This document shows positions 1 through 9,649 of a DNA stretch of 64,000 nucleotides, piece after piece (position 1 is the first letter of the stretch; every line of letters begins with the position of its first letter). The translations under genes were made by a program, and so were the position numbers. The notes under the pieces are model-generated. The model was not told where the DNA came from and made no database searches. It saw nothing but the letters and a program-made list of their open reading frames with translations. Source of the DNA: Chrysomallon squamiferum (lineage: Eukaryota > Animalia > Mollusca); contig CM022678.1 of the NCBI GenBank assembly GCA_012295275.1, positions 15,376,001 to 15,440,000 of the forward strand, in the 5' to 3' direction.

Positions 1-410
1 GAGTCTGCAACACTGTCATTTAACTTGGAGAAATCTCCATTTAACCTTTCTTCAATTAGAACCCAGTCATTTTCACTTAACGTGCAACCAGAAGCAACCT
101 CGTCCATTACTGCCATCTGAGGAACTAGAGTTCGGATCTTGGTGGATGCCAGTTTTCTTAAGTTGAATTCGTTCGCCAGTTTTTGGACCGCCTGACACTT
201 CGTTACTTCAGCAGAACAGAACTGTTCCGTCCAGGCGCCTTTCAAAGCAGTTTTGACACAAACGTTTTTATAGCCTGATGGTTCAAAGCTAGGAAACAGA
301 TAACCTTTGAAAACCTTTTTTTGACTTCCTGTGTGCCAGATGTTCGATTTGAACGCGGCGTGTCCGAAAGGTTCCCCCGGATATACGCAGCAACACGTTG
401 TGTTAGTCAT
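1..410 (-). CDS. Alpha-kinase-family gene A, N-terminal part; runs off the window edge and is not in the ORF track
   Basis: Hand translation from ATG 410: MTNTTCCCVYPGEPFGHAAFKSNIWHTGSQKKVFKGYLFPSFEPSGYKNVCVKTALKGAWTEQFCSAEVTKCQAVQKLANEFNLRKLASTKIRTLVPQMAVMDEVASGCTLSENDWVLIEERLNGDFSKLNDSVAD, open to position 1. Aligns by eye to the 3839/8648 proteins (W..G.KKV..G, VCVK, G.WT...AEV.KC...QK.A..FN, LVP, LSE.D.VL.E). Acceptor tttcag at 416-421; upstream donor cag|gtatg at 821-823. Confidence 0.85.
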   Translation of the reverse strand, partial: MTNTTCCCVYPGEPFGHAAFKSNIWHTGSQKKVFKGYLFPSFEPSGYKNVCVKTALKGAWTEQFCSAEVTKCQAVQKLANEFNLRKLASTKIRTLVPQMAVMDEVASGCTLSENDWVLIEERLNGDFSKLNDSVAD

Positions 411-3405: not shown

Positions 3406-3726
3406 GTAAGGTTTTGTTTTTCGTATTACTTTTATTATTATTTAATTTTAATTTTAATTTAATTTAATTTAATTTAATTTTTATTTTATCTTATTTTATT
3501 TTTGTTTCTTTATTTCATTACTTTTTTTATAATTTATTTATTTATTTATTTATTTACTGACTTATTTTAATTTCGTTTATTAGAAGTGAATGTTAAAACT
3601 GCATATCGTATTAACTATATAGTGCAGAGTTATTGAACGAATAGGATTCAAATCGAAATTTATATTTTTTAATATTTGCAGAAACAAATAGGTAGATGAG
3701 ATTAGTTATTACAACGGATCAATATT

Positions 3727-3783
<57 letters not shown>

Positions 3784-3838
3784 CAATATTAGAAAAATGT
3801 TTTGTTTTAATGGGATTGTATTAATTTTAGAAACCGCG

Positions 3839-4840
3839 ATGAGTTTCCTGTGTAACAGTACCTACAGAAGTACAAACAAAGATGGCGCTGCTTACAGCGT
3901 AGATTATGAGGACTCCTCGTGGAGAAAGGGCAGAAGGAAGAAGGTATATGTGGGAATTGCCCGAGGTCAAGGACCTCTTAACGCAGAGAAAGTTTGTGTT
4001 AAAGTGAGGCGCTCTGGGAAATGGACACACTGTGAAAGCGAGGCTGAAGTCAACAAATGTAAAATCGCTCAGAAATACGCCACGCAGTTTAACAAACTTT
4101 TCAATAAGACACGAGTTACCGTTCTTGTTCCTTTCTCCGCTAAAGTGAGCGATGTGGCGTTGCTGCACACGGTGAAACGACGGCATCGTTCTCTCAGCGA
4201 AGGAGACTTGGTCCTGTTCGAACCCAAAATCGACAAGCATTTCAAAGCTCTCGTCAGACGAAACGGCGAAGTCATTAACGACGTCGATGACAACGTTCTG
4301 GAAGCTTTCGTACATTTCACGTATCACGTGAGCGGAGGCGCGTGCGTGGTGTGCGGTCTTCAGGGAGTTATGTCACGTGACTTAAAAGAAATTCTAATTT
4401 CCGGGCCGACGGTTCACTCGGTTGGACATGACTACGGAGAGCTGGATGGAGGACGTGACGGCATCGACGAAGTCTTTAGAAACCACAGCTGCAACGACAT
4501 GTGTGAAAACTGGTCATTACCTGACGACGACATCCACCTCAAAGAACACAGCGATGTACGACTGCAGCCAACAGCTCCTCCAGAATACGACGAAATGTTT
4601 CAAATGGATGACATCGAAAAACCTGTTCAGACAGAGCCAAAGGAACAAGCATTTCCCGGGTTTTTCTCAGAATATTTTGATTATCACATGATCTGGTACA
4701 GCGATACGTCATCACCCCCACCGTATACAGAACAGCCAATGAGTTTTTCACTTCCTGATCCAGAATGTTTCCATGGTAAAGTTTACAGAAGTTGTCATGA
4801 CAACACAGAATCATATACATTTGTTCCTTACAGATATTAA
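3839..4840 (+). CDS. Alpha-kinase-fold protein B (predicted pseudokinase) with C-terminal PTAP/PPxY motifs, 333 aa, single coding exon
   Basis: Alpha-kinase (eEF2K/TRPM7/MHCK-type) motifs: VCVK lysine, AFVHFTY..S, (D->G)LQGV, (TDP->SGP), Zn-finger tail H-x-CN-x-x-C. The likely start is MSFLC (ATG 3839), just after acceptor ttttag 3830. The ORF-track start at 3797 is intronic. Confidence 0.9.
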   Translation: MSFLCNSTYRSTNKDGAAYSVDYEDSSWRKGRRKKVYVGIARGQGPLNAEKVCVKVRRSGKWTHCESEAEVNKCKIAQKYATQFNKLFNKTRVTVLVPFSAKVSDVALLHTVKRRHRSLSEGDLVLFEPKIDKHFKALVRRNGEVINDVDDNVLEAFVHFTYHVSGGACVVCGLQGVMSRDLKEILISGPTVHSVGHDYGELDGGRDGIDEVFRNHSCNDMCENWSLPDDDIHLKEHSDVRLQPTAPPEYDEMFQMDDIEKPVQTEPKEQAFPGFFSEYFDYHMIWYSDTSSPPPYTEQPMSFSLPDPECFHGKVYRSCHDNTESYTFVPYRY

Positions 4841-6783: not shown

Positions 6784-6841
6784 GGAGGCGCGTGCGTTGT
6801 GTGCGGTCTTCAGGGTGTTATGTCATGTGAATTAAAAGAAA
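6784..6841 (+). pseudogene. 58-bp fragment of the alpha-kinase coding exon embedded in a (TATG)n microsatellite
   Basis: ggaggcgcgtgcgttgtgtgcggtcttcagggtgttatgtcatgtgaattaaaagaaa is nearly identical to 9143-9200 (GGACVVCGLQGVMS..LKE), with tatg repeats on both sides. Confidence 0.85.
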
Positions 6842-7916: not shown

Positions 7917-8174
7917 GGGGATTCCCCTATGATATCATCTTTCTTGGGGAAATTTATTTATAGACCTGGATTTGTCCAGTTATATGAATGTTATAGTTAC
8001 GGGGCAACTGAAAAATTCTAAAACTAATGTTTCAACATTCCTGTACTGGAGCCCGTCCCTGGGGATTCAGAGATCGGACCCGAGGCATGCGTGTCTGATC
8101 GTACTTCTGGATGTGTGTACGTAAAAAGGGTTCTGATACATATAATCCTTTAATAGTGTTTTCTCCTCTCTGAG
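7917..8174 (+). promoter_or_regulatory. Putative promoter and non-coding exon 1 of gene C, with kappaB sites
   Basis: Near-palindromic GGGGATTCCCC at 7917-7927 and GGGGAAATTT at about 7946-7955. The region is homologous to 3269-3405 and has donor gag|gtaaga at 8174/8175. It also carries an extra ~110-120 bp GC-richer segment (about 8022-8140) absent from copy B. Confidence 0.55.
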
Positions 8175-8592: not shown

Positions 8593-8647
8593 CAAAATGA
8601 GAGAAATGTTTTGTTATAATGGGATTGTATTAATTTTAGAATTTGCG

Positions 8648-9649
8648 ATGAGTTTCCTGTGTAACAGTACCTACAGAAGTACAAACAAAGATGGCGCTGC
8701 TTACAGCGTAGATTATGAGGACTCCTCATGGAGAAAGGGCAGAAGGAAGAAGGTATATGTGGGAATTGCCAGAGGTCAAGGACCTCTTAACGCAGAGAAA
8801 GTTTGTGTTAAGGTGAGGCGCTCTGGGAAATGGACACACTGTGAAAGTGAGGCTGAAGTCAACAAATGTAAAATCGCTCAGAAATACGCCACGCAGTTTA
8901 ACAAACTTTTCAATAAGACACGAGTTACCGTTCTTGTTCCTTTCTTCGCTAAAGTGTGCGATGTGGCGTTGCTGCACACGGTGAAACGACGGCATCGTTC
9001 TCTCAGCGAAGGAGACTTGGTCCTGTTCGAACCCAAAATCGACAAGCATTTCAAAGCTCTCGTCACACGAAACGGTGAAGTCATTAACGACGTTGATAAC
9101 AACGTTCTGGAAGCTTTCGTACATTTCACGTATCACGTGAGCGGAGGCGCGTGCGTGGTGTGCGGTCTTCAGGGTGTTATGTCACGTGACTTAAAAGAAA
9201 TTCTAATTTCCGGGCCGACGGTTCACTCGGTTGGACGTGACTATGGAGAGCTGGACGGAGGACGTGACGGCATCGACGAAGTCTTCAGAAACCACAGATG
9301 CAACGACATGTGTGAAAACTGGTCATTACCTGACGACGACATCCACCTCAAAGAACACAGCGATGTACGACTGCAGCCAACAGCTCCTCCAGAATACGAC
9401 GAAATATTTCAAATGGATGACATCGAAAAACCTGTTCAGGCTGAGCCAAACCAAAAAGCATTTCCCGGTTTTTTCTCAGAATATTTTGATTATCACATGA
9501 TCTGGTACAGTGATACGTCATCACCCCCACCGTATACAGAACAGCCAATGTGTTTTTCATTTCCTGATCCAGAATATTTCCATGGTAAAGTTTACAGAAG
9601 TTGTCATGACAGCACAGAATCATATACATTTGTTCCTTACAGATATTAA
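8648..9649 (+). CDS. Alpha-kinase-fold protein C (predicted pseudokinase), tandem duplicate of B, 333 aa
   Basis: About 15 amino-acid differences from B by hand comparison. Same GLQG/SGP substitutions, PTAPPEY and PPPY. Acceptor ttttag at 8639, ATG at 8648. Confidence 0.9.
   Translation: MSFLCNSTYRSTNKDGAAYSVDYEDSSWRKGRRKKVYVGIARGQGPLNAEKVCVKVRRSGKWTHCESEAEVNKCKIAQKYATQFNKLFNKTRVTVLVPFFAKVCDVALLHTVKRRHRSLSEGDLVLFEPKIDKHFKALVTRNGEVINDVDNNVLEAFVHFTYHVSGGACVVCGLQGVMSRDLKEILISGPTVHSVGRDYGELDGGRDGIDEVFRNHRCNDMCENWSLPDDDIHLKEHSDVRLQPTAPPEYDEIFQMDDIEKPVQAEPNQKAFPGFFSEYFDYHMIWYSDTSSPPPYTEQPMCFSFPDPEYFHGKVYRSCHDSTESYTFVPYRY

What the first reader, a model, noticed from the sequence alone, without database searches (positions are those of the whole stretch)
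4316..4504. Both catalytic aspartates of the alpha-kinase core are replaced by Gly, but the Zn site and ATP lysine are kept
Seen: VVC-G-LQGV (GGT 4355-4357) where alpha-kinases have D-L-Q-G, and LIS-G-P (GGG 4403-4405) where they have LT-D-P. Copy C has the same changes. VCVK, the His of HFTY and H-x-C-x-x-x-C are intact. Known: in the TRPM7 kinase these positions are the catalytic base D1765, the metal-binding D1775, K1646 and the Zn ligands H1751/H1808/C1810/C1814. Inference: a folded but inactive pseudokinase, possibly still nucleotide-binding. An intact ORF in two copies argues against simple decay.
Basis: partly seen in the sequence, partly recalled or inferred. Interest (0 to 1): 0.72.

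Follow-up and report, generated by a model that had tools for sequence, protein, structure and literature searches.

The report
Dead mollusc kinase with trafficking tail
This gene encodes an alpha-kinase domain that lacks both catalytic aspartates and belongs to a large mollusc family whose tails carry PSAP and PPxY motifs, so it is predicted to be an inactive kinase likely reused as an adaptor for ubiquitin tagging and membrane sorting.

Summary
Confirmed: Gly (GGT 4355-57, GGG 4403-05) sits where alpha-kinases have their two catalytic Asp; Lys and Zn ligands are kept; copy C is the same. Single Asp-to-Ala mutants of MHCK-A are titled 'inactive' in the PDB and still hold ATP. The gene is not decaying: B-vs-C dN/dS 0.16 in the domain (p=0.0005), a spliced RNA contig for copy C, model pLDDT 92 (Z 22 to MHCK-A). 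The loss is not private: 79 of the 150 best homologs lack both Asp. They form one tree branch (SH-aLRT 98); all 17 named clusters checked are molluscs (limpet, abalone, snails, bivalves, chiton). In this branch 41 of 70 tails have P[ST]AP and 43 of 70 PPxY (shuffles 1.0, 3.8), against 0 of 37 in the active branch. Best reading: a pseudokinase adaptor recruiting TSG101/ESCRT-I and NEDD4-type ligases, working like ARRDC1 or Tribbles (inferred; binding and cargo untested). Gene A groups with a dead relative, so an active+dead pair is unlikely. I found no paper describing the family.

The parts
3839..4840 (+). Gene B coding sequence (333 aa, single coding exon): pseudo-alpha-kinase domain plus about 100-aa acidic, Pro-rich tail
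   Evidence: ORF; Pfam Alpha_kinase E 1.3e-25; ATG 3839 is the first in-frame Met after splicing
3406..3830 (+). Intron in the 5' UTR of gene B (GAG|GTAAG ... TTTTAG|), inferred from homology to copy C
3929..3940 (+). P-loop GRRK: Gly kept, the conserved Arg (MHCK-A Arg592) is Lys
   Evidence: Arg592 role in PMC4876393 passages
3992..4003 (+). VCVK with the ATP-binding Lys (kept)
4250..4267 (+). N/D loop: LVRRNG in place of FNSNNG; the Asn found in 48 of 50 active-branch proteins is Arg
4313..4315 (+). Zn-ligand His of HFTY (kept in 139 of 139 homologs in the tree)
4355..4357 (+). Gly in place of the catalytic-base Asp (MHCK-A D756, mouse TRPM7 D1765)
4403..4405 (+). Gly in place of the metal-binding/phospho-accepting Asp (MHCK-A D766, mouse TRPM7 D1775)
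4484..4504 (+). H-x-C-x-x-x-C Zn ligands (kept)
4568..4588 (+). PTAPPEY: overlapping P(T/S)AP (predicted TSG101-UEV ligand) and PPxY (predicted WW-domain ligand)
   Evidence: family enrichment
4715..4726 (+). PPPY, second PPxY motif
6784..6841 (+). 58-bp stray copy of the GLQG-coding stretch inside a microsatellite (93% to B); non-coding remnant
8150..8174 (+). 3' end of the non-coding first exon of gene C, found spliced to 8640 in an RNA contig
   Evidence: loose end of run X2 contig equals these bases plus the exon-2 start
8648..9649 (+). Gene C coding sequence, tandem paralog of B (97.2% nt): same two Gly (9164-9166, 9212-9214), PTAPPEY 9377-9397, PPPY 9524-9535
1..410 (-). 5' part of gene A, a divergent member of the same branch, runs off the window before its catalytic loop

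Best explanation
Genes B and C encode a zinc-bound alpha-kinase fold that lacks both catalytic aspartates and is predicted to be inactive, followed by a tail whose PTAP and PPxY motifs likely recruit TSG101/ESCRT-I and NEDD4-family ubiquitin ligases, so the protein likely works as an adaptor rather than an enzyme. Shown: loss of both Asp and of the N/D-loop Asn; kept Lys, hinge Glu and Zn ligands; purifying selection; splicing of copy C; membership of a mollusc branch in which catalytic residues are variable while fold residues and the two tail motifs are kept. Inferred: no phosphotransfer. Inferred: the dead domain (its former substrate groove, or a partner kinase surface) binds a cargo, the PPxY motifs bring a WW-HECT ligase, and PTAP hands the ubiquitylated complex to ESCRT-I for lysosomal sorting or vesicle budding. 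Unknown: the cargo, ATP binding, and how B reaches a membrane.
For: Register of both Gly on the catalytic Asp. PDB titles call MHCK-A D756A and D766A 'inactive', each solved with ATP; Asp766 'catalytically essential' (PMC4876393 passage). Model pLDDT 92.1, pTM 0.87; Z 22.2, rmsd 2.3 A over 203 residues to MHCK-A. dN/dS 0.16 in the domain, 10 syn vs 6 non-syn, Fisher p=0.0005. Spliced RNA contig. Among 150 homologs: 79 lack both Asp, 53 keep both, 14 only the first, 4 only the second. Branch of 89 homologs plus B separated from 50 mostly intact kinases, SH-aLRT 98 with 11 catalytic columns removed. Six catalytic positions: 42 of 50 active-branch proteins keep all six, 2 of 76 scorable ones in B's branch do. 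Tails of 30 aa or more: P[ST]AP 41 of 70, PPxY 43 of 70, both 30 of 70 (1000 shuffles: mean 1.0, 3.8, 0.08; max 6, 11, 2), against 0 of 37 in the active branch; no other order of the letters P,S/T,A,P exceeds 2 of 70 once the motif is masked. Motifs kept across four Haliotis and two Patella species sets. The motif-to-partner link is from PMC8402826 and PMC9105457 passages.
Against: No activity, binding or localisation data. 16 of 70 tails in the branch have neither motif, and some sub-groups (scallop P0029 cluster, Elysia P0012 cluster) have none. Five branch members keep both Asp, two keep all six positions, so the branch is not uniformly dead. B and C lack the N-terminal Met-Gly that 26 of 88 branch members (and 17 of 49 active ones) have, so no membrane anchor is evident. 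The motifs could just destroy the protein itself rather than a cargo. The B/C tail evolves near neutrally (dN/dS 0.70, p=0.7), although the three motifs are unchanged. RNA support is three shallow runs of one study (depth 2.5-3.3) and its alleles mostly match C, so B's own expression is not shown. Kinship inflates motif counts: the 70 tails are not independent (they are under 50% identical clusters).
Confidence: 0.6

Rival explanations
1. Inactive regulator or decoy: the dead domain inhibits, activates or mimics an active alpha-kinase (or senses a nucleotide), and the PTAP/PPxY tail only sets its own turnover or location; no third-party cargo is ubiquitylated.
For: Lys, hinge Glu and P-loop Gly are kept and Asp-less MHCK-A mutants bind ATP (titles). 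Active relatives exist in related animals (Lingula). Tandem expansion with fast divergence (Patella SNE40_017457-017463, Haliotis) is what decoy families look like (general knowledge).
Against: Two different motifs in fixed order (P[ST]AP before the first PPxY in 29 of 31) is the layout of ARRDC1-type adaptors and viral late domains rather than of a plain degron. The nearest candidate partner, gene A, also falls among dead proteins.
Confidence: 0.24
2. Re-tooled enzyme: the domain performs a different chemistry (ATPase, AMPylation or similar) with other residues.
For: His207, Ser208 and Asp217 (ORF numbering) are as conserved or more conserved in the Asp-less branch (86/88, 87/87, 87/87) than in the active one (32/50, 45/50, 48/49). 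Other pseudokinases have turned out to be enzymes (recalled: SelO, SidJ).
Against: The two former Asp columns hold no consistent substitute (G 44, N 20, D 18, K 3; T 31, N 18, D 7, V 7 of 89); the first column changes at least 9 and up to 18 times on the tree, as a relaxed site would. I could not inspect model coordinates for compensating acids.
Confidence: 0.1
3. Residual protein kinase, or a decaying or mis-assembled duplicate with no function.
For: Lys and fold kept; CDS copies are 97% identical and may have been homogenised; a stray fragment lies between them.
Against: Each single Asp mutant is inactive in MHCK-A (titles); dN/dS 0.16; spliced transcript; same losses in intact orthologs of many molluscs; flanks of B and C differ too much (69-88%) to be one allele assembled twice.
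Confidence: 0.06

Closest known systems
Alpha-kinases (PF02816): MHCK-A, EhAK, eEF2K, TRPM7, ALPK1; database label 'alpha-protein kinase vwkA-like'
   Same: Fold (Z 22), ATP Lys, hinge Glu, Zn site, GxxDxG loop
   Different: Both catalytic Asp, N/D-loop Asn and P-loop Arg lost; stand-alone domain with a PTAP/PPxY tail; databases still name relatives as kinases
ALPK3
   Same: [quoted passage not shown]
   Different: ALPK3 keeps both Asp (D1774, D1784) and varies at four other residues; its inactivity is disputed in the literature (recalled; PMC11358020 seen only as a listing); large Ig-domain muscle protein of vertebrates
ARRDC1 (alpha-arrestin) and LITAF/SIMPLE
   Same: Folded domain plus unstructured tail with PSAP (binds TSG101 UEV; PMC9105457 passage) and PPxY motifs
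   Different: Different fold (alpha-kinase, not arrestin or LITAF domain); binding shown for them, only predicted here
Tribbles pseudokinases
   Same: Dead kinase domain binds a substrate and a tail motif recruits an E3 ligase (PMC13648414 abstract start)
   Different: Conventional CAMK-like fold, COP1 ligase and proteasome; here alpha-kinase fold with predicted NEDD4/ESCRT route
Viral late domains (Ebola VP40, HTLV-1 Gag)
   Same: Overlapping or paired P(T/S)AP and PPxY (PMC8402826 passages); B's PTAPPEY is of the overlapping type
   Different: Cellular, intron-containing gene; the overlap itself is rare in the family (1 of 70 other tails), so convergence, not viral origin

Membership tests
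Alpha-kinase family (fold) | Pfam Alpha_kinase profile above cut-off and alpha-kinase 3D fold | tested here: met
   91 bits vs cut-off 21.3; Foldseek E 2e-14; Z 22.2, rmsd 2.3, 203 aligned
Alpha-kinase family (fold) | C-lobe Zn site His/His/Cys/Cys | tested here: met
   H173, H230, C232, C236 present; metal binding itself not assayed
Active alpha-kinase | Invariant ATP Lys | tested here: met
   K69
Active alpha-kinase | Catalytic-base Asp (DLQG) and metal-binding Asp (TDP) | tested here: not met
   Both Gly
Active alpha-kinase | N/D-loop Asn and P-loop Arg | tested here: not met
   Arg155 for Asn; Lys48 for Arg, a conservative change also seen in 6 of 50 active-branch proteins
Pseudokinase (functional class) | Expressed, selected, folded kinase domain lacking catalytic residues | tested here: met
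   expression shown for a C-type transcript only
Pseudokinase (functional class) | No measurable phosphotransfer; nucleotide-binding class | not testable with these tools
   needs assays
ALPK3-type pseudokinase | Both Asp kept, other cleft residues changed | tested here: not met
   ALPK3 keeps D1774/D1784; B lacks both
ARRDC1/LITAF-like ESCRT-NEDD4 adaptor (works-like) | Conserved P(S/T)AP and PPxY in an unstructured tail | tested here: met
   model confidence falls after residue 230
ARRDC1/LITAF-like ESCRT-NEDD4 adaptor (works-like) | Binding to TSG101-UEV and WW domains; cargo ubiquitylation or vesicle release | not testable with these tools
ARRDC1/LITAF-like ESCRT-NEDD4 adaptor (works-like) | Membrane-targeting element | tested here: inconclusive
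   Met-Gly start in 26 of 88 branch members but not in B or C; B has one N-terminal Cys, A has three
Alpha-arrestin family (membership) | Arrestin N and C domains | tested here: not met
   Pfam finds only Alpha_kinase at E<=1 for B
Tribbles (membership) | CAMK-like pseudokinase fold and COP1-binding tail motif | tested here: not met
   Fold is alpha-kinase; the COP1 motif was not scanned

The most novel reading that the evidence does not exclude
Molluscs turned a stand-alone alpha-kinase into a large family of dead, late-domain-bearing adaptors: the tail was gained first, the catalytic aspartates were then lost repeatedly, and the proteins (many myristoylated) drive NEDD4/ESCRT sorting or ARMM-like vesicle budding of selected cargo, for example in shell secretion or immunity - an arrestin-like system built on a kinase fold.
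Probability: 0.35. Interest if true: 0.82.

Novelty: new variant of a known kind. Interest (0 to 1): 0.63.

Why it matters
The only alpha-family pseudokinase I found in print, ALPK3, keeps both catalytic Asp. Here a whole, expanded mollusc branch lacks them outright while keeping fold and zinc, giving natural dead/alive comparisons across more than 80 divergent proteins. The coupling of catalytic loss to PSAP/PPxY tails yields a concrete, cheap test (TSG101 and WW binding) and would add a new scaffold to the short list of ESCRT/NEDD4 adaptors. It also means many mollusc genes annotated 'alpha-protein kinase vwkA-like' are probably not kinases; one so-named Mytilus gene is expressed in the larval shell field and read as a kinase (PMC9283884), though I could not place it in either branch.

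Tried and rejected
No whole genome is held, so the rest of gene A could not be read. Word-indexed homolog searches with B's domain and full length found nothing at E<=0.001; the branch profile returned only 5 proteins, all scallop or unnamed, so that tool gives no range. ESM Atlas only confirms Alpha_kinase clusters. A second laying of reads on copy C returned nothing, so the splice rests on one loose end. Three look-ups in earlier findings were empty. Literature searches (listings, plus passages of the papers cited) showed no description of Asp-less mollusc alpha-kinases; the library lacks most subscription journals, and one search was too broad to be informative. The Mytilus 'VwkA' supplement gives only a contig id and primers, so its branch is unknown. 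Myristoylation as a branch-specific trait was rejected: 26 of 88 vs 17 of 49. YPx(n)L (ALIX) motifs are not common (5 of 70). Sequencing error, haplotig duplicate and active+dead pair with gene A were considered and rejected or judged unlikely. Eleven partial homologs were dropped before the trees; tails under 30 aa or without the last Cys were left out of motif counts (19 of 89 and 13 of 50).

Full report
Setting. The window is AT-rich animal DNA with microsatellites; no whole genome is held. Three alpha-kinase genes lie in the first 10 kb: A (410 to the left edge, minus strand), B (ORF 3797-4840) and C (ORF 8597-9649); all pass the Pfam Alpha_kinase cut-off. A profile scan of all six frames finds no further copy apart from a weak remnant near 6.8 kb. 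The nearest named relatives are from Patella and Haliotis, so the animal is likely a gastropod (inference). Residue numbers below count from the ORF start at 3797; subtract 14 for the likely real protein.

Observation. GGT 4355-4357 and GGG 4403-4405 are present. Alignments to EhAK (4KUJ) and ALPK1 place G187 on the Asp of DIQG/DLQG and G203 on the Asp of LTDP; the family profile aligns the same columns to MHCK-A, whose D766A mutant reads YTAP there. K69, E142, H173, H230, C232 and C236 are kept. The review PMC2827801 (passages) names the Lys and two Asp as invariant catalytic residues; PMC4876393 (passages) calls Asp766 catalytically essential. PDB titles describe MHCK-A D756A and D766A as inactive and both were solved with ATP. 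A protein lacking both is therefore predicted inactive, and ATP binding remains possible.

It is a live gene. B and C differ at 10 synonymous and 6 non-synonymous sites in residues 15-243 (dN/dS 0.16, Fisher p=0.0005) and at 3 and 9 in the tail (0.70, not significant). Four public runs hold part of the stretch. An RNA contig of run X2 continues upstream with bases equal to the end of C's first exon (8150-8174) joined to 8640, i.e. a spliced transcript; a stop codon in frame just upstream makes ATG 8648 the start of C, and ATG 3839 the start of B. An RNA contig of run X1 covers both Gly codons with no other letter listed. These contigs are shallow (depth 2.5-3.3), from one study, and mostly carry C alleles; B's own expression is not shown. 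AlphaFold2 with an 82-sequence alignment gives pLDDT 92.1, pTM 0.87; the model matches MHCK-A at Z 22.2, rmsd 2.3 A over 203 residues and TRPM7 at Z 18.8. CDS identity is 97.2% while flanks align at 69-88%: a real tandem duplicate, perhaps homogenised by gene conversion.

It is a family. Of the 150 best hits among 1.84 billion cluster representatives (1510 hits at E<=0.001, only these 150 examined), 79 lack both Asp, 53 keep both, 14 keep only the first and 4 only the second. After dropping 11 partial rows and masking the two Asp columns, the tree splits into 50 proteins (45 with both Asp) and 89 homologs plus B and C (5 with both Asp). The split holds at SH-aLRT 98 with 11 catalytic columns removed (groups taken, no outgroup, so monophyly rests on the intact state being ancestral). 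Of six catalytic positions, 42 of 50 proteins of the intact branch keep all; in B's branch 2 of 76 scorable ones do and the commonest count is one. I looked up 26 clusters of B's branch: 17 carry names, all molluscs (Patella, Haliotis, Nucella, Biomphalaria, Elysia, Mizuhopecten and other scallops, Pinctada, Saccostrea, Liolophura); 9 are unnamed. Of 4 intact-branch clusters, one is named (Lingula). Neighbouring locus tags in Patella (SNE40_017457, 460, 461, 463) show tandem clusters like this one. The first Asp column changes 9 to 18 times on the tree, so it behaves as a relaxed site or was lost repeatedly. Gene A is sister to P0036 (SH-aLRT 99; 51% identity), which reads GGFGG and THSS at the two sites and has PSAP and PPPY in its tail; an active A is unlikely but not excluded.

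The tail. B and C end in about 100 acidic, Pro-rich residues with PTAPPEY and PPPY. Among tails of 30 aa or more, B's branch has P[ST]AP in 41 of 70, PPxY in 43 of 70 and both in 30 of 70; 1000 shuffles give means 1.0, 3.8 and 0.08 (maxima 6, 11, 2); the intact branch has 0 of 37 for each. Other orders of the same four letters reach at most 2 of 70 once the motif is masked, and Tyr is by far the commonest residue after PPx (43 vs 18 for the next). P[ST]AP precedes the first PPxY in 29 of 31 tails that have both (B included), usually 11-40 residues after the last Zn Cys. The motifs are kept in ortholog sets of Haliotis and Patella, and absent from a scallop and an Elysia set; 16 of 70 tails have neither. 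The few branch members that keep both Asp include ones with the motifs (P0025, P0044, P0088, P0099), which suggests the tail came before complete catalytic loss (inference).

Mechanism. P(T/S)AP binds the UEV domain of TSG101 and PPxY the WW domains of NEDD4-family ligases; cellular adaptors such as HRS and ARRDC1 and viral late domains use them, and Ebola VP40 has the two overlapping (PMC8402826 and PMC9105457 passages). I therefore read these proteins as pseudokinase adaptors: the dead domain binds a partner or cargo, the tail brings a HECT ligase and ESCRT-I, and the complex is sorted to lysosomes or budded in vesicles. This is the logic of Tribbles (PMC13648414 abstract start) with another fold and another ligase. 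Catalytic death I put at about 0.9, motif function at about 0.75, and the full adaptor model at 0.6. Gaps: no cargo, no binding data, and no clear membrane anchor in B or C (Met-Gly starts occur in 26 of 88 branch members but equally in the intact branch). Rivals: a regulator or decoy whose tail controls only its own turnover (0.24); a re-tooled enzyme using His207/Asp217, which are very conserved in the branch (0.10); residual kinase or decay (0.06).

Comparison and novelty. It belongs to the alpha-kinase fold family but fails the active-site test. ALPK3, described as the first alpha-family pseudokinase, keeps both Asp (PMC9698156 passages). It is not an arrestin, LITAF or Tribbles member. 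Seven searches of the held library gave no paper on Asp-less mollusc alpha-kinases or their tails; I read passages of PMC13143021, which deals only with vertebrate ALPK/TRPM kinase domains. Subscription journals and unseen supplements could hold a mention. A Mytilus gene labelled VwkA is expressed in the larval shell field and rises at low pH (PMC9283884 passages and one supplement file); whether it is in this branch is unknown.

Verdict. Observation confirmed; pseudokinase reading supported and extended to a mollusc-wide branch with ESCRT/NEDD4-type tail motifs. New variant of a known kind; interest 0.63.

Noticed in passing
window 6784-6841: 58-bp copy of the GLQG-coding stretch (93% to B) sitting inside a (TATG)n microsatellite between genes B and C
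   Followed up: partly
window 43762-46354 (+): Exons of a glycosyl hydrolase family 9 (cellulase) gene, three Pfam hits
   Followed up: no
window 23251-23757 (+) and 49611-50282 (-): Cadherin-domain exons on opposite strands
   Followed up: no
window 36845-43540: 200-N assembly gap followed by about 6.5 kb of degenerate, strongly strand-skewed AT-rich tandem sequence (GC about 0.10)
   Followed up: no
window 50954-52064: Tandem array with a 70-bp period, about 95% identical units
   Followed up: no
window 381-410 (-), gene A N-terminus: MTNTTCCCVYPG: three adjacent Cys, shared with P0036, a possible palmitoylation site
   Followed up: no
P0031 (1530 aa), P0069 (3296 aa), P0016/P0017/P0033 (660-900 aa): Asp-less alpha-kinase domains also occur inside much longer proteins; their other domains were not examined
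   Followed up: no
P0015, P0025: Members of the Asp-less branch that keep all six catalytic positions (P0025 with a PTAP tail): candidate active controls
   Followed up: partly
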